DNA of 20,650 nucleotides from Candidatus Heimdallarchaeota archaeon B3_Heim. GTDB lineage: Archaea > Asgardarchaeota > Heimdallarchaeia > Hodarchaeales > Hodarchaeaceae. The position numbers were made by a program, and so were the translations under genes. Positions 3,111 to 11,407 of this stretch are shown in pieces. How positions within the stretch are numbered: the stretch's first letter is position 1; every line of letters starts with the position of its first letter. The notes beneath the pieces are model-generated. The model was not told the origin of the DNA and made no database searches. It was given only the letters and a program-made list of their open reading frames with translations. The stretch covers positions 1 through 20,650 of the forward strand of contig NJBF01000051.1 in NCBI GenBank assembly GCA_003144275.1, given 5' to 3'.

Positions 3111-3140
3111 TTGAATTCTGAATTAAGTAATTATATGGTA

Positions 3141-3151
3141 TCACATAGTGA
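3141..3151. promoter_or_regulatory. short palindrome TCAC-N3-GTGA, candidate operator in the divergent promoter
   Basis: tcacatagtga lies between the two divergent TATA candidates. Confidence 0.3.
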
Positions 3152-3170
3152 ACTCTGAGCAGCCACAAGG

Positions 3171-3180
3171 TATATATATA
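3171..3180 (+). promoter_or_regulatory. candidate TATA box for the DUF2080-GNAT-bzd operon
   Basis: TATATATATA upstream of the first operon gene. Self-complementary, so it could act on either strand. Confidence 0.45.
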
Positions 3181-3264
3181 GTAATACTTGCGAATATCTG
3201 AGAGATTTTGGAGGGTTCATTTATACTAAACACTCCCAAAAAACAGCCAAAGCATTTAGTAAGA

Positions 3265-3462
3265 ATGGTGAATAACGTGATCGAGCTAGTAGAAGAGCTT
3301 CCATCGGAATTAAAGGTTACTGGATTTGAAATGATAGAACGTGAGGTTAAACAAAGTGGAAATACAGGCCGCGTCTATTTGCCAAAAAATTGGATTGGAT
3401 CTACCGTCAAGATTATACGAGTTTCGAAAAGAAAAGGAGTATCAAGACAAACGAAGGACTGA
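3265..3462 (+). CDS. DUF2080-family small protein (AbrB-like fold inferred)
   Basis: EMIEREVKQSGNTGRVYLPKNWIGSTVKIIRV matches the DUF2080 pattern VKxxGNxGRVYLPxxWxGxxVKII. ATG 3265 gives 65 aa; the ORF track uses TTG 3208. Confidence 0.8.
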   Translation: MVNNVIELVEELPSELKVTGFEMIEREVKQSGNTGRVYLPKNWIGSTVKIIRVSKRKGVSRQTKD

Positions 3463-3480
3463 AACACATAATTTTGTGAG

Positions 3481-3930
3481 ATGATCATTCTGAATATACG
3501 GAAAAAAATTAGTATTAGGAAAATGAAGGAATCTGACATCAATTCAATTATCTCTCTTGATGAAGTCATTTCTGGAAAATCCCGATCTGAAATGTGGATA
3601 TCTGAACTACACCATTATCTTAAAAACAACAGTATTGGTCTTGTTGCAGAAATTCAGGAGCAGGTAATAGGATTTATGATTGGAACAATCCATCCTTGGT
3701 TATTTGGTATCGAAAACGGAGGATGGATCGAAATTCTTGGAGTTGATCCGAAGCACACTGCTAAGGGAGTAGGAAAAAAACTTGGAGAAAAGCTTCTCGA
3801 AGATTTCAAATCACGAGGGATAAAAGTTGTCCATACAACTGTTGAGTGGACATCCAGCGATTTACTTGAATTTTTTCATACACTTGGAATGACCAAAAGC
3901 GACTATATTACTTTAATGAAGGAATTATGA
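3481..3930 (+). CDS. GNAT-family acetyltransferase-fold protein
   Basis: IRKMKESD, LVAE...VIGF, WIEILGVDP-x3-AKGVGKKL (motif A) and FFxxLG; 149 aa. Confidence 0.88.
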   Translation: MIILNIRKKISIRKMKESDINSIISLDEVISGKSRSEMWISELHHYLKNNSIGLVAEIQEQVIGFMIGTIHPWLFGIENGGWIEILGVDPKHTAKGVGKKLGEKLLEDFKSRGIKVVHTTVEWTSSDLLEFFHTLGMTKSDYITLMKEL

Positions 3931-4007: not shown

Positions 4008-5159
4008 ATGCAACTTGTACAAAAAGAAGAAAATAATTTTTTCAACCAATTCAAGGATTGGTACGAAGATCGACATGAGTATGCAAAGGCTTGGAAAGAA
4101 CGCACTGGGGGAAAGGTGATAGGATATTTCTGTACCTACGTACCCGAAGAAATTCTTTATGCCGCAAACATACTTCCAGTCCGTATTTTAGGAAGTCATG
4201 AACCACAGGATGTTACAGAACCACATATTTTCGCGATGTTCTGTCCGTTTTGTCGCGATTGCCTTGCACAAGGATTGAAAGGCCGTTTTGACTATCTAGA
4301 TGGAATAATGATCGCTCAAAGCTGTCTTCACATCAGACAGGCATATACAAGCTGGGATCTCCATATTCCCACAGATTATAGTTACTACCTACCTCATCCA
4401 ATGCATGTCCAGAGTCCTCATGCTATTCCTTACCTAAAGGATGAGTTGATTCAATTCAAAAAATCTCTAGAAAAATGGATTGGTCATCCTATCACTGAGA
4501 AGGACTTAAAAAATGGTAGTGAACTAATGAACAAAAATCGACGCTTGATGAATCAAGTGTATGAGCTTAGAAAAAAACCCAACCCACCCCTTACAGGATT
4601 AGAAGCAATGTACATGGTAGTATCAAGTCAAATGATAGATAAGGAAGAACATAACAGTGAGTTGGAGGTGCTTCTTCAAAAGCTACCTTCACGTGATATA
4701 GGTGATCCTGGAGAAAGGCTAATAATCATAGGGTCTGAAGATGACGATACAAAGTTTATAGAAATGGTGGAAGATCTAGGAGCAACATTTGTTACTGACG
4801 ATCATTGCACAGGTACTCGTTATTTCCAAGAAGAAGTGAATCCATCAGAAGATTTAATGACTGCAATTGCAGAACGATATGTAAAACGCGTACCATGCCC
4901 GTCTAAAGATTGGCCTAAACGCACTAGACTTGATCATATTATGCGAATGAGTAAGGAATATTCAGTTCAAGGGGCCATATTGATACAACAGAAATTTTGT
5001 GATCCACACGAATTGGATACACCCGCAATAAAAGAAAAACTAGAAGATAAGGGAATTTCAACTTTATTCCTTGAGTTTGATGTTACTGTGCCAATTGGTC
5101 AATTCAAAACCCGTGTTGAGGCATTTCTTGAAATATTACGAGAGGAGGATTTATTTTAG
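4008..5159 (+). CDS. bzdN: benzoyl-CoA reductase, bzd-type, subunit N
   Basis: [51 protein letters not shown] and LFLEFD...LF closely match Azoarcus-type BzdN as recalled. First gene of the N-O-P-Q order. Confidence 0.93.
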
Positions 5160-5167
5160 GAGGAAAT

Positions 5168-6484
5168 ATGATGAGTAAAGCAAAATACCCAAGTGAGAAA
5201 TTGAAAAGCTGGGGAAAAGCGAAGATTCTGCGTGAGAATTATTATAGAGACTTCGCAGAAGCCCATGATAAGGGTGGAATACGCTGGGCTGGAGGGGCTT
5301 GGTCTTTCGATGCTATTCCTGCCGGATTGGGTGAAGATGTATGGTGCTTAACAGGGGAGCCTTATGGCGCAACTATTGCCTTTAATAAAGACTTAGCTTT
5401 AGAATGTCAAGAAGCTATCGAAACCAAAGGATATGCAAGAGACCTATGTTCATATATGCGAAATTATTGGGGATCGATTATTCTAAACAAATACGCCTGG
5501 CCACAATTCTCAGAGGAATTTCCAAAGCCTGATTTTATGTGGCAAGATCACATTTGCTGCTCACATGCTAAATGGTATCAGGTTGCTAGTGATCTTGAAG
5601 GAGGGATTCCCATGTATAGCATTGATGTATCAGTGGGCCCTTATGAAGAACTAACCGAAAGTAGAATTAATTATGTTGTAGGACAAATGCATGATGGAAT
5701 AAAATGGCTCGAAAAACAAACTGGTAGAGATTACGATGATGAACTCCTCATCAAAGCAGTTCACAACGAATTTCGGAGTTGTCATTACTGGGCAGCTATT
5801 TGTGAGCTTAATAAAACAATACCTGCGCCGTTAGATGAAAAAACAATGTATGCTTTATACGTTCTAGGTACATTAAGAAAATCTTCACAATGGACTGCCG
5901 ATTTCTATGAGAAAGAGCTATATCCTGAAGTTAAAAGTCGAGTAGAGAGAGGAATTGCTGCTGTAGAAAACGAACAATGTCGTATTATGACCGATACCCA
6001 ACCTCCATGGGCATTCCTTAAAGTTTTTCGGTATATGGAGAAATATGGTTGTGTATCAATAGGAAGTCTTTATACTTTCTCACTCATTGGATTGTGGGAA
6101 GATAGGGAAGATGGGACATGGGGTCCAAGAGCTATTCCTGAAATTGAGATATCAAATCGCGATGAAGCCCTACGAGCTCTTGCAAAGTGGAATTTAAGTA
6201 AACCTGAATGGCAACATTTCTATCATCCCAAATTGAAATCTGAGATGATGATTCGGATTGCACGCGAATGGAAGCTTAATGGAGCTCTATTACACTTTAA
6301 TAGGGGTTGTGAAGGGCTAAGTCTAGGAATTGCTGAAAATCGTTTGGCGATTCAAAAGGCTGGATTTCCAGTAATGCCATTTGAAGGAAATATGGGTGAT
6401 GAAAGAGAATTCGATCTTACCAGGACAATGACTCGGATAGATGCATTCATGGAAAGCCTCGGAATAAAGAAATTAGTGGATTAA
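5168..6484 (+). CDS. bzdO: benzoyl-CoA reductase, bzd-type, subunit O (catalytic)
   Basis: [76 protein letters not shown]. Confidence 0.94.
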
Positions 6485-6499
6485 ATGTGGAGAATTCTT

Positions 6500-7288
6500 A
6501 TGACAGTAATTGGAATTGATTTAGGAGCAAAAAATACAAAAGTTGTGATATTGAGAGAAGGTGAAATTCTGACAACTGCCTCGGCCTTAAGTGGATTTGA
6601 TCAAAAAGCTTCTGCAGATGAAGCAGTAAACAACGCATTAAAAAGTGTTGGAATAGCTCGAGATGAAATTAAACACATCACAGCAACAGGAGCTGGAATG
6701 GACGCCATTACTTTTGCAAATGATACAGTCACTGAAATTAGCGCAAATGCACGTGGAATATTCACAGTTTTTCCTTCCGTACGTACCGTGATAGATGTAG
6801 GAGCTGAAGAAGGACGAGCTATTCGCTTAAATGATGATGGAAAAGTTGTAGATTTTGGGATAAATGAAAAATGCGCTGCAGGTGCAGGTGCTTTCACAGA
6901 AGCCATGGCAAGAGCTTTGGAAGTAGAACTGGAAAAAATGGGAGAAATGTCCTTGAAATCCACAAAAGCAGTTCCTATGAACGCTCAATGTACTATTTTC
7001 GCAGAATCAGAAGTAGTCTCATTAATCCACCAAAAAACACCGAAAGAAGATATTATTCGAGCAGTACATGACGCTATTGCCGATCGAATTACTAGCATGG
7101 CTCGTAGAGTCGGTATTGAGAAAGAAGTGGCTCTGAGCGGGGGGGTTGCTAACAATATTGGTTTTGTCAATTCAATGACACGTAACCTTGGATATGATCT
7201 TCTGGTGCCCAGAGATCCCGTAATGCCAGAATTTATTCCAGCTTATGGAGCTGCTCTTTTAGCTCAAGATAAATTGAATGGAGGATAA
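6500..7288 (+). CDS. bzdP: benzoyl-CoA reductase, bzd-type, ATPase/activator subunit P
   Basis: ASKHA activase motifs GIDLG, TVIDVGAEE, NEKCAAGAG and CTIFAESEV. ATG 6500 has GGAG upstream; the track starts at 6485. Confidence 0.9.
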   Translation: MTVIGIDLGAKNTKVVILREGEILTTASALSGFDQKASADEAVNNALKSVGIARDEIKHITATGAGMDAITFANDTVTEISANARGIFTVFPSVRTVIDVGAEEGRAIRLNDDGKVVDFGINEKCAAGAGAFTEAMARALEVELEKMGEMSLKSTKAVPMNAQCTIFAESEVVSLIHQKTPKEDIIRAVHDAIADRITSMARRVGIEKEVALSGGVANNIGFVNSMTRNLGYDLLVPRDPVMPEFIPAYGAALLAQDKLNGG

Positions 7289-7292
7289 AAAC

Positions 7293-8174
7293 ATGGCTAA
7301 TTCGGAAAGTAAAGAGTATTGGAGATGGACTGAATCGCGTTGGACCAATCCAGATCTTGATTGGAAAAACGGAGATATAATTTCCGCAGGAGTAGATGTA
7401 GGTTCAGTTAGTACACAATCGGTTGTGATGGTTGATGGCGAAATATTCTGTTATGCGAATATGAGAACTGGAAGTGATAGTCCAGATAGTGCAAATAATT
7501 CAATGAATTGGGCACTAGATGGGACTGGTCTTCCATTGGATAAAATTGAATATGCTGTCGGTACAGGTTATGGCCGTGTAAATGTACCTTTCGCAAAAAG
7601 AGCCCTCACAGAAATTGCCTGCCATGCTCGTGGGGCTAATTTTATGTATGGTCCTTCAATTCGTACAGTATTAGACATGGGAGGCCAAGATTGTAAAGCA
7701 ATACGTTGTGACAATCGAGGTAAAGTGACTGCATTTCTAATGAATGATAAATGCGCAGCAGGAACAGGAAGAGGTATGGAAGTGTTTGCAGATCTTCTTC
7801 AGATCCATATTAATGATGTAGGACAAATGTCTTTAGTTGATGAAGAACCAGAACCAGTAAGTAGTACTTGTGTTGTTTTTGCTAAATCTGAAGCAGTTGC
7901 TTTGTTACGAAAAGGTTGGACTAAAGAAACGGTCTTAGCTGCTTATTGCGGAGCGATGGCTCATCGAGTAGTGACCCTTTTAGAACGACTTGGAGTAGAA
8001 AATGATTTCGCTATAACTGGAGGAATTGCGAAGAATATTGGTGTCGTTTCTCGAATTGAAGAAGAATTAAAGATAACTGCTCCCGAACCAAGTATTGATC
8101 CACAGCTTGCTGGTGCAATAGGTGGTGCTTTGTTTGGGAAAGCTCTGGTTGAAAAAGCTAAAAAAAAGGCTTAA
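7293..8174 (+). CDS. bzdQ: benzoyl-CoA reductase, bzd-type, ATPase/activator subunit Q
   Basis: N-terminal YWRWTESRWTNPDLDW typical of BzdQ; GVDVGS, GTGYGR, DMGGQDCK, NDKCAAGTG, CVVFAKSE. ATG 7293 follows GGAGGA; the track starts at 7278. Confidence 0.93.
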   Translation: MANSESKEYWRWTESRWTNPDLDWKNGDIISAGVDVGSVSTQSVVMVDGEIFCYANMRTGSDSPDSANNSMNWALDGTGLPLDKIEYAVGTGYGRVNVPFAKRALTEIACHARGANFMYGPSIRTVLDMGGQDCKAIRCDNRGKVTAFLMNDKCAAGTGRGMEVFADLLQIHINDVGQMSLVDEEPEPVSSTCVVFAKSEAVALLRKGWTKETVLAAYCGAMAHRVVTLLERLGVENDFAITGGIAKNIGVVSRIEEELKITAPEPSIDPQLAGAIGGALFGKALVEKAKKKA

Positions 8175-8212
8175 AAAACTGCATACAATTTGTAAAGTAA
8201 AGTGAGTAAAAA

Positions 8213-8500
8213 ATGAAGGCAAATTATGGCTATAAAGACGGTTCGGGAGAATATTATATTACTATCGAAACCGAACTCTGCAATGGATGTGCTAAATGTG
8301 TCGAAGCCTGCCCTGAAAATGTCTTAGAAGTAGTTGAAAATGAGATGGATCCTTTAGCGGAGGATCTCGTTGCAAGGGTTTCTGATGAGCATCGTAAGAA
8401 AATTAAATATTCCTGTGCTCCTTGTAAACCTACTATGGGCCCCATAGAACTTCCTTGTGTCCAAATTTGTGAACCTAGTGCTATTACACATTCATGGTGA
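8213..8500 (+). CDS. bzdM: 2x[4Fe-4S] ferredoxin, BzdM type
   Basis: ANYGYKDGSGEY N-terminus, CNGCAKCVEACP and CAPC-x9-CVQIC; directly after bzdQ. Confidence 0.8.
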   Translation: MKANYGYKDGSGEYYITIETELCNGCAKCVEACPENVLEVVENEMDPLAEDLVARVSDEHRKKIKYSCAPCKPTMGPIELPCVQICEPSAITHSW

Positions 8501-8572
8501 ATTTTCAGTAATCTTAATCCAATTGTGTCTATTTGTCAATGGAATGAAAAAGAAAGTTATGGGGCTTCAAAA

Positions 8573-11104
8573 ATGGAAAAAGTATCTCTCACTATAAATA
8601 GTACAGAGATTTCTGCTGCAAAAGGAACATCCATTCTGGAAGCAGCTCAAAATTCTGGAATCTATATACCGAAACTTTGTACACATCCAGATTTACCCCC
8701 CTCCCAAAGCCTGAAGCCAGTGGAATTTGTTTATCGTGGAGATGTACAATATAAAAATGACAATTCATCATCATCGAAAGAACATGAAGGTTGTCAGCTT
8801 TGTGTTGTAAAGATTGAGGGAGAAGAAGAACTTTTAACAGCGTGTAATAAAGAAGTCGAGGAAAATATGACAATCTGGACTGATACATCTGAGATCCAAG
8901 ATTTTCGTCGGGAAAAAATGATGAATATCTTATCAAAACATCACCATGCATGTCTAACTTGCGCTCAGCAAGCTGGGTGTAGCAGGGAACCATGTTCAAC
9001 AAATGTCCCAGTAGAAGAACGTTGCTGTCCAGAATTTGGTAGATGTGAATTGCAAAAACTTGCAGAATACATTGGAATCAGAGAAGATACACCTCGTTAC
9101 ATTCCTAAAGAAACTCAGGTTCTCGACGATGAACCTTTGTTCATAAGAAATTACGAACTATGTATTGGTTGTACGCGATGTGTAAGAATATGTAGAGACA
9201 TCAGGGGAGTGGAATCACTTGGTTTTGTATTTTCAAATGGTGAAACGATTGTAGGGAGTATTGCACCGACATTGAAAGAATCAGGGTGTAAATTCTGTGG
9301 AGCTTGTGTAGAAGTATGTCCTACAGGAGCCTTATCGGATAAGGATATACTTTGGAGTGAACGTGAAAGAGCCCTTGTACCCTGTCGTGACACATGTCCT
9401 TTAGAAGCTGATGTTCCACGTTATATCCGTTATATTGCTGAAAGAAAGTTTGATGAGGCCGTCGCAGTCATTCGAGAGAAAACTCCATTTCCCTTAGTTC
9501 TTGGAAGAATTTGTTTTCATACCTGTGAAGAGAAATGTTGTAGAAACGAAATTAACGAACCAATTGCAATATGTGCACTCAAGCGTTTTGCAATGGAACA
9601 TGATACAGGAACTTGGAAATCAAAGGTGAAAGTTGCTCCTGCTACGGGTAAAAAAATCGCAATAGTAGGATCTGGACCAGCTGGACTCACTGCTGCTTAT
9701 TATTTAGCGAAAGCTGGCCATTCAATGACAGTATTTGAAGCAGAATCAAGAGCAGGAGGTATGATGAACTTCGGGATACCAGAGTACCGATTACCAAGAG
9801 AGATCCTGAAAAAAGATCTTGAGTATATCATAAACATGGGAGTCAAAATTAAAACTGAAGAAATGATTGGAGAGAATTTAACACTTAAAGACCTGAATAC
9901 TCAAGGATATGAGGTAATCTTTTTAGCAATTGGAGCTCAACAAGCAAAAAAGCTAAGAATTGATGGAATAGAACATGAAAATGTTCTCTGGGGATTAGAT
10001 TTCCTGAAAAAGGTTAATTTAAATTATGAAGTAAATGTTGAAAAACGGGTTATTGTAATAGGTGGGGGAAATGTTGCAATGGATGTAGCATTAACTGCTC
10101 TTCGGCTAGGTGCAAATGAAATCATAATAATTTGTTTAGAATCTAGAGAGGAGATACCAGCTCACGAATGGGAAATTAAAGAAGTAGTAGAGGAAGGTAT
10201 TAAACTCAATTGTTCATGGGGGCCAAAACAAATCCTTTCAAAAGATGGAAAAATAACAGGAATTGAATTAATTAAGTGTACTAGTGTTTTTGACACCAAA
10301 GGAACTTTTTCCCCGATCTTCGATGAAACAATAACACAGACTATTGAAACTGAAATGGTCATAATGGCCATCGGTCAAGATGCCGATTTATCAGTTTTAA
10401 ATAAAGAAACTCAAGATGAAATTTCCCATGGGAGATTCATCAAGATCAATGAAGATAGCCTAGAAACAACTATACCTGGAGTTTTTGCAGGAGGAGAAGT
10501 TACAGAAGGACCTATTTCTGTCGTTGAAGCACTGGAAATGGGTCGAAAAGCCGCACAGACAATTGATAAGTATTTAGGAGGCACTGGAAATATTGATGAA
10601 GTGTTGGCGGAGATAGAAACTCCCAACGCTTGGTTAGGTCGTGAGGAAGGCTTTTATGATAAACAACGTGTTGAGATACCCGCCATACCCATATCGGAAC
10701 GATCAAAAGGATTTAATGAAATAGAACTCGGTTACATGGAAGAAATGGCAGTCGAAGAAGCGAAACGCTGCCTTCGCTGTGATTTGAGGTTACAAATTTC
10801 TCCAGTAATTTTACCTCCAGAAAAATGGTTAGAATTGTCTACCGAGAATGTACAGAATGTTCCAGAAAGTGGAGGAGCATTCCAACTTCTTGATGAGAAT
10901 AAACATGTGATTTTTATACAAGGTACTCCTAATCTACGGCAGGTACTAGAGGAGAAGGTTTCCAGTATGCCTAATGCTTGTTATTTTGGATTTGAGGAAG
11001 ATCCGATGTATACCAAGAGAGAGAGCGAAATCCTTCAACAGTTTATGCAAGAGTTCGGAAGAATGCCTGAAGGTAATGAAGAGTTGGACGACGACCTATT
11101 TTGA
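8573..11104 (+). CDS. multi-domain Fe-S flavoprotein, BzdV-like NAD(P)H:ferredoxin oxidoreductase (NuoG-like N-terminal Fe-S domains + GltD/NfnB-like module + C-terminal GIY-YIG-like domain)
   Basis: [2Fe-2S] PKLC..GCQLC..AC; His-ligated cluster H..CLTC..CELQ; 2x[4Fe-4S] CIGCTRCVRIC and CKFCGACVEVCP; GRICFHTCEEKC; FAD motif VGSGPAG; dinucleotide motif IGGGNVA; EAKRCLRC. ATG 8573 preferred to GTG 8525. Confidence 0.82.
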   Translation: MEKVSLTINSTEISAAKGTSILEAAQNSGIYIPKLCTHPDLPPSQSLKPVEFVYRGDVQYKNDNSSSSKEHEGCQLCVVKIEGEEELLTACNKEVEENMTIWTDTSEIQDFRREKMMNILSKHHHACLTCAQQAGCSREPCSTNVPVEERCCPEFGRCELQKLAEYIGIREDTPRYIPKETQVLDDEPLFIRNYELCIGCTRCVRICRDIRGVESLGFVFSNGETIVGSIAPTLKESGCKFCGACVEVCPTGALSDKDILWSERERALVPCRDTCPLEADVPRYIRYIAERKFDEAVAVIREKTPFPLVLGRICFHTCEEKCCRNEINEPIAICALKRFAMEHDTGTWKSKVKVAPATGKKIAIVGSGPAGLTAAYYLAKAGHSMTVFEAESRAGGMMNFGIPEYRLPREILKKDLEYIINMGVKIKTEEMIGENLTLKDLNTQGYEVIFLAIGAQQAKKLRIDGIEHENVLWGLDFLKKVNLNYEVNVEKRVIVIGGGNVAMDVALTALRLGANEIIIICLESREEIPAHEWEIKEVVEEGIKLNCSWGPKQILSKDGKITGIELIKCTSVFDTKGTFSPIFDETITQTIETEMVIMAIGQDADLSVLNKETQDEISHGRFIKINEDSLETTIPGVFAGGEVTEGPISVVEALEMGRKAAQTIDKYLGGTGNIDEVLAEIETPNAWLGREEGFYDKQRVEIPAIPISERSKGFNEIELGYMEEMAVEEAKRCLRCDLRLQISPVILPPEKWLELSTENVQNVPESGGAFQLLDENKHVIFIQGTPNLRQVLEEKVSSMPNACYFGFEEDPMYTKRESEILQQFMQEFGRMPEGNEELDDDLF

Positions 11105-11137: not shown

Positions 11138-11407
11138 TTGCCAGCGAATAAAATTCCTAAGAGAAATCAATTGGAAAAAGAGGGATGGATAAAGAAATTT
11201 ACTATTGAAGAATATCGAGTGAACGAGTACGTAGAATTATATGAATCATTGGATCAAGAAGTAAGAGTTGAACCTGTGATTCTCAGTGAGATGGAGGGTT
11301 GTAATGAATGTTTTAAGGTGGAATGTAGTAATTATCGTGTAATCTACACGCGAAGACTAAGAGAGTTTAGAACTAAAGAGAAAAACTCCTCTAATCAGAT
11401 ATACTAG
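11138..11407 (+). CDS. 89-aa hypothetical protein with CxxC
   Basis: LEKEGWIKKF, VELYESLDQEVRVEPV, CNECF, YRVIYTR. TTG start 33 nt after the bzdV-like stop. It looks like a real conserved small protein, but no function is recognised. Confidence 0.7.
   Translation: MPANKIPKRNQLEKEGWIKKFTIEEYRVNEYVELYESLDQEVRVEPVILSEMEGCNECFKVECSNYRVIYTRRLREFRTKEKNSSNQIY

What the first reader, a model, noticed from the sequence alone, without database searches (positions are those of the whole stretch)
3265..3930. DUF2080 + GNAT pair leading the bzd operon: candidate new acyl-CoA-sensing regulatory system
No recognisable classical regulator (BzdR, BadM/Rrf2, MarR, two-component system) is in the window. Instead the operon opens with a 65-aa DUF2080 protein, a family labelled transposon-associated but with an AbrB-like swapped-hairpin signature, and a GNAT-fold protein; no transposase is nearby. 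In Rhodopseudomonas palustris the GNAT BadL acts with the repressor BadM in the benzoate cluster, which is a precedent for GNAT-linked control. Inference: DUF2080 binds the divergent promoter and the GNAT modifies it or senses CoA esters.
Basis: inference. Interest (0 to 1): 0.7.

Follow-up and report, generated by a model that had tools for sequence, protein, structure and literature searches.

The report
DUF2080–GNAT control cassette of ring reductases
A tiny DNA-binder-like protein and a small acetyltransferase-like protein open this archaeal operon for oxygen-free benzene-ring reduction, and the same pair sits in front of both known kinds of ring-reducing enzyme in many anaerobic bacteria and archaea, so it is probably an undescribed gene switch.

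Summary
A 65-aa DUF2080 protein (3265-3462) and a 149-aa GNAT (3481-3930) head a bzdNOPQ-type benzoyl-CoA reductase operon in an Asgard (Hodarchaeales-like) genome. No classical regulator or transposase is in the window.

The pair is strongly linked to ring reduction. All 13 congeneric genomes with a BzdN orthologue have the DUF2080 gene 0.6-0.7 kb upstream. Among the 80 closest DUF2080 loci (Asgard, Thermoplasmata, Desulfobacterota), 76 have the GNAT adjacent. Of these, 22 carry class I reductase genes and 17 carry bamB (class II).

In the bacterial loci the DUF2080 genes are preceded by arrays of TAGYTA half-sites (palindrome TRTAGCTAYA) spaced exactly 11 bp, over the core promoter. The same arrays occur before bamB, a BCR-like operon and a kor gene elsewhere. 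They track one residue of DUF2080 (E/D before the invariant Trp: 40/70 against 0/58).

I read the pair as a transcription-control cassette. DNA binding, the GNAT's role and the operator in this window (an N-type protein with only degenerate sites) are not shown. A paralogous, reversed pair lies elsewhere in the genome, away from aromatic genes. This scan has flagged the same cassette before on other DNA. The literature searched mentions the pair once and dismisses it.

The parts
3137..3187 (.). Conserved promoter-proximal block. It is the candidate operator plus core promoter of the DUF2080-GNAT-bzd unit.
   Evidence: This is the only well-aligned block of the intergenic region among the window and its closest orthologous loci L031-L035. 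G005 has TATCACAATGTA at the same place, which resembles the bacterial GTCACAATGTAGCTA. The only two intergenic ATAGTRA sites in the window lie here. It is not the canonical TAGYTA array.
3265..3462 (+). DUF2080 protein, 65 aa, the candidate DNA-binding component. The conserved core runs from about residue 14 to 54 and has a GRVYLP-x-x-W-I-G motif.
   Evidence: family matches. (72-sequence alignment: E22, V28, G35, R36, Y38, L39, P40, W43 and G45 invariant across archaea and bacteria).
3481..3930 (+). GNAT-fold protein, 149 aa. The CoA pyrophosphate-binding glycines are kept. The usual general-acid Tyr position is Phe (F132), invariant in the family.
   Evidence: The gap to the DUF2080 gene is 18 nt here. 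In relatives the gap ranges from an 8-nt overlap to about 45 nt.
4008..11104 (+). Controlled operon: bzdN-, bzdO-, bzdP- and bzdQ-like class I benzoyl-CoA reductase genes, a ferredoxin and a BzdV-like Fe-S flavoprotein.
   Evidence: HGD-D x2, BcrAD_BadFG x2, Fer4, Pyr_redox_2/Fer4_20. Orthologues follow the pair in all fetched loci.
11138..11407 (+). 89-aa protein of no known family that closes the operon. It is a third gene that travels with DUF2080 in other genomes.
   Evidence: Homologues lie beside DUF2080 or the pair in 13 of 80 loci, in some directly behind a solo DUF2080. No Pfam, NCBIfam or PHROG match. The Atlas shows only unnamed clusters from Asgard and Thermodesulfobacteriota.

Best explanation
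The DUF2080 and GNAT genes form a dedicated transcription-control cassette for the benzoyl-CoA reductase operon they head. The 40-residue DUF2080 core most likely forms a dimer or higher oligomer. It would bind repeated sites on one face of the DNA over the core promoter, repressing its own transcription unit and, in other genomes, further ring-reduction and ferredoxin-supply promoters. The GNAT keeps its CoA-binding loop but has Phe where most GNATs have the catalytic Tyr. It is the likely signal-input partner: it would bind an acyl-CoA (benzoyl-CoA or acetyl-CoA) and relieve or tune DUF2080 binding, by contact or by acylating a conserved lysine. Shown here: the genes exist, the synteny is conserved across domains and across both enzyme classes, and phased operator arrays are tied to DUF2080 genes and to bamB, BCR-like and kor promoters. 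Inferred: that DUF2080 is the protein that binds them, that it represses, what the GNAT does, and which sites are used in this Asgard window.
For: (1) Genus-level co-occurrence. The BzdN orthologue is present in 13 of 22 congeneric genomes. In all 13 a DUF2080 match lies 0.6-0.7 kb upstream on the same strand, and the GNAT between them was confirmed in the 7 loci fetched. Genomes without BzdN lack this pair. Two genomes have a variant pair before another HGD-D/BCR-like operon.
(2) Conservation across phyla. Of the 80 best DUF2080 loci among 536 relatives, 76 have the GNAT adjacent. 22 hold class I BCR genes and 17 hold bamB. The bamB identification was verified at 1263 bits to PDB 4Z3W_A, with BamC- and BamD-like genes behind it.
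(3) Reciprocal test starting from BamB. Of 74 usable loci, 17 have the pair and 7 have a solo DUF2080 directly before bamB. Others have a solo DUF2080 upstream and a pair about 10 kb away, including cultured Desulfosarcina widdelii PP31.
(4) Operator. T[AG]TAGCTA[CT]A occurs 24 times in 821 kb, and 22 of these lie within about 340 nt upstream of a DUF2080 start, which is 5.5% of the sequence. At least two half-sites within 40 nt occur in 20 of 56 dereplicated upstream regions, against 2 of 497 control windows. The spacing between neighbouring half-sites is exactly 11 bp in 84 cases, 22 bp in 10 and 33 bp in 2. The arrays sit from the -10 box onward behind TTGACA. In Thermoplasmata they sit directly after a TATA box.
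(5) Sites acting in trans. The same arrays lie before a bamBC without an adjacent pair, before a BCR-like operon and before a KorA-like gene. They also lie before bamB in many loci without DUF2080.
(6) Protein-operator co-variation. With E/D before the invariant Trp, 40 of 70 have phased arrays. With other residues, 0 of 58 do.
(7) GRVYLP resembles the AbrB/SpoVT/MazE G-x-V-x-I-P strand.
Against: No DNA binding has been measured for any DUF2080 protein that I could find. The AbrB/MazE relationship is weak: hhalign probability is 29% over 12 columns, and the monomer model has no structural match. The canonical operator is missing from the window and from all 14 Asgard bzd loci. The reading is therefore carried over from bacterial and Thermoplasmata relatives to an N-type protein. 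Another, unlinked factor could bind the arrays. Related genomes are not independent, so the counts overstate the support. A paralogous pair with reversed gene order sits next to M28 peptidase and HEAT-repeat genes in nearly every genome of the genus. The module therefore has at least one role unrelated to aromatics. One proteomic study did not detect the two proteins in a benzene-degrading culture (PMC13101534).
Confidence: 0.55

Rival explanations
1. The pair acts on proteins of the pathway, not on DNA. The GNAT (nearest relatives are RimI/Ard1/Naa-type N-terminal acetyltransferases and YpeA) acylates a reductase subunit, the ferredoxin or a CoA ligase. DUF2080 is its adaptor, substrate or inhibitor. 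The operator arrays belong to another regulator.
For: The nearest solved relatives are protein N-acetyltransferases. The two genes are tightly coupled. From established knowledge, lysine acetylation controls benzoate-CoA ligase BadA in R. palustris.
Against: It does not explain why solo DUF2080 genes without a GNAT sit directly before bamB with their own arrays. It does not explain why the arrays track a DUF2080 residue. The usual catalytic Tyr is Phe throughout the family.
Confidence: 0.15
2. A BadL-like small-molecule route. The GNAT acetylates an aromatic amine or similar metabolite to make an effector, as BadL does for BadM. DUF2080 is either the effector-responsive repressor or unrelated.
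For: BadL and its Geobacter (Gmet_2096) and Magnetospirillum homologues sit with a repressor next to bad/bam genes and acetylate aminobenzoates. BadM itself was not acetylated (PMC6191541). GNAT plus repressor beside ring-reductase genes is thus a recurring layout.
Against: The partner here is not an Rrf2 protein, and its 40-residue core is too small for an obvious ligand pocket (inference). Similarity of this GNAT to BadL was not tested. The Tyr-to-Phe change argues for low transferase activity (inference).
Confidence: 0.12
3. A genuine type II toxin-antitoxin (or defence) pair, with GNAT as toxin and DUF2080 as antitoxin and autorepressor, that merely hitch-hikes on aromatic-degradation islands.
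For: The layout is TA-like: a small upstream gene, overlapping or near-overlapping cistrons, and palindromic operators at the promoter. A DUF2080 protein was validated as the antitoxin of a nuclease toxin (PMC10440598). CalpT joins a MazF-like domain to a DUF2080 domain.
Against: Synteny with BzdN is strict in 13/13 genomes of the genus, and the pair is lost together with BzdN. The pair holds the same position before two unrelated enzymes, in three phyla. Operator copies sit at other ring-reduction promoters. No GNAT toxin appears among PDB profile hits at E<=1e-3. There are no PADLOC hits. The family has Phe where, from my memory of the TacT/AtaT literature, a Tyr-to-Phe change inactivates the toxins.
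Confidence: 0.08

Closest known systems
BadM/BadL of Rhodopseudomonas palustris (and the Rrf2+GNAT pairs of Geobacter metallireducens Gmet_2096 and Magnetospirillum amb3392)
   Same: A repressor gene and a GNAT gene are encoded together beside benzoyl-CoA reductase genes. The GNAT supplies the signal that lifts repression (PMC6191541).
   Different: The DNA binder here is a 48-65-aa DUF2080 protein, not an Rrf2 winged-helix protein. The operator is a phased 11-bp array. The GNAT has Phe at the usual catalytic Tyr position, and its relation to BadL was not tested. The cassette leads the operon and occurs in archaea as well.
Type II GNAT toxin-antitoxin modules (TacAT, AtaRT, KacAT, ItaRT)
   Same: A small DNA-binding protein is encoded just upstream of a GNAT, and the promoter carries repeated operators. 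In TacAT the GNAT also acetylates its partner (from memory).
   Different: The antitoxins there are RHH/DUF1778 proteins, and the GNATs acetylate aminoacyl-tRNA and need the Tyr that is Phe here. This pair is fixed in front of metabolic operons and its operator recurs at other metabolic promoters.
AbrB / SpoVT / MazE swapped-hairpin DNA binders (Pfam PF04014 clan), and MraZ, which binds phased direct repeats (from memory)
   Same: It shares the G-R-V-x-[IL]-P strand motif, a very small domain that needs oligomerisation, and recognition of repeated sites.
   Different: Only sub-threshold profile similarity was found. The second hairpin of the AbrB domain is missing from the 40-residue core. The fold is not confirmed.
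Other DUF2080 proteins: 'transposase-associated' archaeal proteins (NF033496), the SpnP2/DUF2080 antitoxin (PMC10440598) and the C-terminal domain of the CRISPR-Lon substrate CalpT
   Same: Same sequence family. It is a small partner-binding or DNA-binding module used in two-gene systems.
   Different: No transposase, nuclease toxin or CRISPR context here. The partner is a GNAT and the neighbourhood is ring reduction.

Membership tests
DUF2080 (Pfam PF09853 / NCBIfam NF033496) | Match to the family profile above the curated cut-off | tested here: met
   Pfam 23.9-24.5 bits against 21.5. NF033496 67 bits against 22. All 72 aligned relatives match PF09853.
DUF2080 (Pfam PF09853 / NCBIfam NF033496) | Association with a transposase, as the family name says | tested here: not met
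   None of the 20 main ORFs of the window carries a transposase domain. The recurrent neighbours in 80 loci are GNAT, BCR, Bam, CoA-transferase and Kor genes.
AbrB/SpoVT/MazE swapped-hairpin superfamily | Significant profile similarity to PF04014-type domains | tested here: inconclusive
   48 of 72 members give sub-threshold PF04014 hits, best E 0.003. hhalign against 20 archaeal PF04014 domains gives 12 columns, P 6e-4, probability 29%.
AbrB/SpoVT/MazE swapped-hairpin superfamily | Dimeric swapped-hairpin beta-barrel fold | tested here: inconclusive
   The monomer AF2 model has pLDDT 74 and two strands. Foldseek finds only weak DZBB-fold dimers at E about 7. VIA wide search finds nothing. No dimer model could be made.
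GNAT (Pfam PF00583) | GNAT fold and profile match | tested here: met
   E 3e-11. AF2 pLDDT 91. Foldseek probability 1.00 to many GNATs.
GNAT (Pfam PF00583) | CoA pyrophosphate-binding loop (x-x-G-x-G/A) | tested here: met
   K-G-V-G-K in the window protein. G96 is nearly invariant (at least 90% of sequences) and G98 is invariant in the 65-sequence alignment.
GNAT (Pfam PF00583) | General-acid Tyr four residues before the G-F of motif B | tested here: not met
   F132 occupies that profile position (profile coordinates). F131 and F132 are invariant in the family. That this Tyr is the catalytic residue is established knowledge for many, but not all, GNATs.
BadM/BadL switch | Rrf2-family repressor partner | tested here: not met
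   No Rrf2 domain in the window. The partner is DUF2080.
BadM/BadL switch | GNAT orthologous to BadL and acetylating aminobenzoates | not tested
The activity needs an assay.
Type II GNAT toxin-antitoxin | RHH/DUF1778 antitoxin and a TacT/AtaT-like GNAT | tested here: not met
   The partner is DUF2080. No GNAT toxin appears among 58 PDB profile hits at E<=1e-3 or among the top 50 Foldseek hits.
Type II GNAT toxin-antitoxin | Patchy, mobile distribution independent of neighbouring genes | tested here: not met
   13/13 synteny with BzdN in the genus. Fixed position before bzdN or bamB in three phyla.
Bzd-type class I benzoyl-CoA reductase operon (the controlled genes) | Two HGD-D-family subunits plus two BcrAD/BadFG ATPase subunits with a ferredoxin | tested here: met

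The most novel reading that the evidence does not exclude
A cross-domain master switch for anaerobic ring reduction. A roughly 40-residue DNA binder would read 11-bp-phased TAGYTA arrays and be governed by a catalytically weakened GNAT that serves as a benzoyl-CoA (aryl-CoA) receptor. It would be derived from a toxin-antitoxin-like ancestor and would control class I and class II benzoyl-CoA reductases and their ferredoxin supply in Desulfobacterota, Thermoplasmata and Asgard archaea.
Probability: 0.3. Interest if true: 0.8.

Novelty: new variant of a known kind. Interest (0 to 1): 0.62.

Why it matters
How strict anaerobes such as sulfate reducers, syntrophs and archaea switch their benzoyl-CoA reductases on is largely unknown. 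The described regulators (BzdR, BadR/BadM, BamVW, BgeR) come from a few cultivated Proteobacteria and Geobacter. A cassette that precedes both enzyme classes in three phyla, with a simple and recognisable operator, would give a testable regulon marker for anaerobic aromatic degradation in metagenomes. It would also give a compact sensor part for benzoyl-CoA, and an example of one small regulator working with both bacterial sigma-70 promoters and archaeal TATA promoters. Desulfosarcina widdelii PP31 carries the system and is cultivated, so the question can be tested directly.

Tried and rejected
Complex prediction of GNAT with DUF2080, both given as alignments, returned no verdict with score 0.00. 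It counts neither for nor against binding.

Structure route for DUF2080: the monomer model was middling. Foldseek against PDB gave nothing at E<=0.001. VIA wide search gave nothing. A sequence profile against PDB gave nothing meaningful.

I keep it only as part of a block conserved in close relatives.

A search for the canonical TAGYTA operator in the window and in 14 Asgard bzd loci found it absent.

GTATCA[CG]A occurs only at 3138 and 3970, before DUF2080 and before bzdN. The second copy is not conserved in relatives, so it is not used.

PHROGs and PADLOC give no hits for DUF2080 and only generic acetyltransferase hits for the GNAT.

Public runs hold only small shares of the stretch (at most 0.10). 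One 197-nt contig of a metatranscriptome (run X5, 5 differences) spans the DUF2080-GNAT junction at 3401-3597. DNA carry-over cannot be excluded, and uncovered parts say nothing.

A literature search for the palindrome found nothing relevant. The AbrB of Geotalea daltonii acts on the rpoN promoter and is a different system.

bzdS/T/U of Azoarcus as possible counterparts could not be checked, because no usable text or sequence was found.

Full report
WHAT IS THERE

The window is contig C46 of a 3.9-Mb, 94%-complete archaeal genome. Close relatives are labelled Hodarchaeota, Heimdallarchaeota or Promethearchaeota MAGs.

On the + strand, the ORF at 3265-3462 encodes 65 aa. The ORF at 3481-3930 encodes 149 aa.
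- The first ORF matches Pfam DUF2080 just above threshold (23.9-24.5 bits against 21.5). It matches NCBIfam NF033496 clearly (67 bits).
- The second ORF is a GNAT (Acetyltransf_1, E 3e-11). It has a confident GNAT model (pLDDT 91). Its nearest solved relatives are YpeA, RimI/Ard1/Naa-type N-terminal acetyltransferases and AAC(6') enzymes.

Behind the pair lie two HGD-D genes, two BcrAD/BadFG ATPase genes, a ferredoxin, a BzdV-like flavoprotein and an 89-aa orphan. This is a Bzd-type class I benzoyl-CoA reductase operon. Divergently upstream lie a ThiS-like gene, a tungsten-type AOR and an Fe-S protein. No regulator or transposase domain is present in the 20 main ORFs.

IS THE PAIR TIED TO RING REDUCTION?

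Within the genus, the BzdN orthologue is found in 13 of 22 genomes. In each of the 13, a DUF2080 match lies 0.6-0.7 kb upstream on the same strand. G005 was missed by the Pfam screen but was recovered. The GNAT lies between the two genes in all seven loci that I fetched. Genomes without BzdN lack this pair. Two genomes (G001, G016) have a variant pair before a different HGD-D/BCR-like operon.

Beyond the genus, a scan of species-representative genomes with a DUF2080 alignment found 536 relatives. Among the best 80 loci, 76 have the GNAT adjacent, always in the order DUF2080 then GNAT. The gap between the genes ranges from an 8-nt overlap to about 45 nt. The loci come from Asgard archaea, Thermoplasmata and many Desulfobacterota, including Desulfarculaceae, Desulfotignum, Desulfobacula, Syntrophaceae and Desulfatiglandales.
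- 22 loci carry class I reductase genes.
- 17 loci carry an AOR-family gene directly behind the pair. One such gene scores 1263 bits to BamB of Geobacter metallireducens (PDB 4Z3W) and is followed by BamC- and BamD-like genes.
- 19 further loci (Desulfotignum/Desulfobacula type) have Kor subunits, an Fe-S protein and an 871-aa molybdopterin enzyme upstream.

The reciprocal test started from BamB, not from DUF2080. Of 74 usable loci:
- 17 have the pair directly before bamB.
- 7 have a solo DUF2080 directly before bamB.
- 9 have DUF2080 and GNAT genes in the locus without a complete pair directly before bamB. Several of these, including cultivated Desulfosarcina widdelii PP31, have a solo DUF2080 before bamB and a pair about 10 kb away.

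AN OPERATOR

I found these arrays before I consulted the scan's earlier notes.

Upstream of the bacterial DUF2080 genes there is a sigma-70-like promoter (TTGACA, about 17 nt, TATAGT/TATAAT). It is followed immediately by two to four copies of a motif whose full form is the palindrome T[AG]TAGCTA[CT]A.
- The 10-mer occurs 24 times in 821 kb of fetched loci. 22 of these lie within about 340 nt upstream of a DUF2080 start, which is 5.5% of the sequence.
- The half-site TAGYTA is 16-fold enriched there, at 3.3 per kb against 0.20 per kb.
- At least two half-sites within 40 nt occur in 20 of 56 dereplicated upstream regions, against 2 of 497 control windows.
- Neighbouring half-sites are spaced exactly 11 bp in 84 distinct contexts, 22 bp in 10 and 33 bp in 2. 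Almost no other spacing occurs. The sites therefore lie on one face of the helix.
- In Thermoplasmata the same motif follows a TATA box directly.
- The palindrome is rare genome-wide, at 3-6 sites in three Desulfobacterota genomes, fewer than the reversed control.
- Some sites away from DUF2080 genes form arrays before a bamBC pair, before a BCR-like operon and before a KorA-like gene.
- Many bamB loci without a DUF2080 gene still carry 11- or 22-bp-spaced half-sites 60-250 nt upstream.
- The arrays co-vary with the protein. DUF2080 proteins with Glu or Asp before the invariant Trp have phased arrays in 40 of 70 cases. Those with Asn, Ser or other residues have them in 0 of 58. Relatedness inflates this contrast, but the split is clean.

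No other conserved regulator gene recurs in these neighbourhoods. Solo DUF2080 genes have their own arrays. The simplest reading is that DUF2080 binds the arrays and autoregulates.

WHAT THIS MEANS FOR THE WINDOW

The window protein is of the Asn type (P-K-N-W). Neither it nor any of 14 Asgard bzd loci has the canonical array.

What the window does have is a block at 3137-3187. It is the only well-conserved part of the intergenic region among the six closest orthologous loci. The block contains:
- a TATA-like run at 3171-3179;
- two degenerate half-sites, ATAGTGA and ATAGTAA, the only intergenic copies in the window.

In G005 the first element reads TATCACAATGTA. This is close to the bacterial GTCACAATGTAGCTA that follows the -10 box. 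The sister group of Asgard loci carries a different repeated element, CACTTACAATACACT, next to its TATA-like element. An earlier scan note reports the same. The operator in this window therefore remains a candidate, not a finding.

WHAT THE PROTEINS LOOK LIKE

The DUF2080 core is about 40 residues with consensus K-F-E-V-Y-G-E-E-M-I-E-K-E-V-K-Q-S-G-N-S-G-R-V-Y-L-P-P-E-W-V-G-K-x-V-K-I-I-R. It is strikingly conserved between bacteria and archaea, while the GNAT partners share only 30-40% identity. G-R-V-Y-L-P resembles the G-R-V-V-I-P strand of AbrB/SpoVT. From memory, the Arg in that strand contacts DNA.

The measured similarity is weak. PF04014 matches are sub-threshold in 48 of 72 members. hhalign gives probability 29% over 12 columns. 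The monomer model has no structural neighbour. I therefore treat 'AbrB-like' as a working analogy, not as family membership.

The GNAT keeps the glycine-rich CoA loop. It has Phe (F132, invariant together with F131) at the profile position of the general-acid Tyr. This favours a ligand-sensing or weakly catalytic role, but that is inference. A midpoint-rooted tree of the GNATs separates three groups: the Asgard operon-linked clade, the second Hodarchaeal paralogue clade, and a bacterial clade that includes the Thermoplasmata sequences. This fits Thermoplasmata keeping the bacterial operator.

MECHANISM AND RIVALS

Best reading (0.55): a control cassette. DUF2080 oligomers occupy phased sites over the core promoter and repress. 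The GNAT couples this to an acyl-CoA signal.

The layout is that of a type II toxin-antitoxin operon, and DUF2080 domains do serve as antitoxin or partner-binding modules elsewhere. A domesticated TA-like origin is therefore plausible. A live TA pair (0.08) fits poorly with four observations:
- the strict synteny;
- the shared loss with BzdN;
- the operator copies at other metabolic promoters;
- the absence of similarity to GNAT toxins.

A protein-modification role for the GNAT with DUF2080 as adaptor (0.15) is not excluded. A BadL-like small-molecule route (0.12) is also not excluded. Neither explains the solo DUF2080 genes with their own arrays before bamB.

A caution applies to all readings. 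The same genome has a second pair with reversed order (GNAT then a 48-aa DUF2080) between an M28 peptidase gene and a HEAT-repeat gene. That pair is conserved in nearly every genome of the genus, and its DUF2080 is 90-100% identical across them. The module is thus not confined to aromatic metabolism.

KNOWN OR NEW

DUF2080 appears in four papers of the library, none of them on aromatic metabolism. [quoted passage not shown] Neither was detected in the proteome, and the authors set them aside (PMC13101534). Database names for the GNAT are generic. I found no description of the operator.

This scan has met the same cassette before on other DNA. Notes e1-1390328 and e1-5303658 have follow-ups reaching the same reading. 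Notes e1-5507016, e1-5454854 and e1-5540175 are first-reader notes. These are unchecked AI notes and I do not count them as independent support.

I class the finding as a new variant of a known kind: a small repressor plus a GNAT beside ring-reductase genes, as in BadM/BadL, but with an unrelated DNA binder and operator, and with cross-domain reach.

Noticed in passing
G000:C38 (L001 1489-2151, - strand): A second, paralogous pair with reversed order: a 167-aa GNAT followed by a 48-aa DUF2080, between an M28 peptidase gene and a HEAT-repeat gene. It is conserved in nearly all genomes of the genus. Its DUF2080 is 90-100% identical across them while its GNAT is only 62-98% identical. No aromatic genes or TAGYTA sites lie nearby.
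   Followed up: partly
L008 1435-1832; L022 1450-1859; L023: In a sister family of the same class, a 70-aa DUF2080 gene is followed, overlapping by a few bases, by a 61-66-aa protein with a signal/TM segment and an Arg-rich tail. No GNAT is present.
   Followed up: no
window 11138-11407; L048 6838-7409; L051, L052, L064, L068, L073, L091, L094, L101, L105: The 89-aa orphan that closes the bzd operon has homologues beside DUF2080 or the pair in 13 of 80 loci. In some it lies directly behind a solo DUF2080 gene, as if it could take the GNAT's place. No known family matches.
   Followed up: partly
window 3208-3267: A GGAGG conserved among Asgard orthologous loci lies about 50 nt upstream of the ATG at 3265, with no start codon behind it. 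A 13-nt inverted repeat (3218-3230 / 3255-3267, 85% complementary) could pair with the start codon region. The leader may have a role of its own.
   Followed up: no
L003, L004, L042, L043: A variant DUF2080-GNAT pair (Asgard; DUF2080 with a long acidic N-terminal extension) heads a different operon. That operon has two distant HGD-D proteins (22-29% identity to BzdN/HGDD2), two activase-type ATPases and an orf89 homologue (61% identity). It is possibly another ATP-dependent aryl-CoA reductase or dehydratase.
   Followed up: no
L056, L060-L069, L072, L074, L081-L083, L100, L103-L105, L108: In Desulfotignum/Desulfobacula-type loci the pair lies behind Kor subunits, a Fer4_11 protein, an 871-aa PhsA-like molybdopterin oxidoreductase and a conserved 301-aa protein of no family. 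Their promoters carry other repeats, such as tandem AGCTAAC heptamers in L063 and L103, in place of the 11-bp array.
   Followed up: partly
L193 (Desulfosarcina widdelii PP31, NZ_AP021875.1) 9620-10005: A cultivated, fully sequenced sulfate reducer has TTGACA followed by three half-sites, a solo DUF2080 gene and, 31 nt behind it, bamB. A GNAT-DUF2080 pair lies about 10 kb away on the other strand. This is a practical test organism.
   Followed up: partly
window 3138 and 3970: GTATCA[CG]A occurs only twice in the window, once before the DUF2080 gene and once in the GNAT-bzdN spacer. The genome frequency is 0.065 per kb. The second copy is not conserved in relatives.
   Followed up: yes
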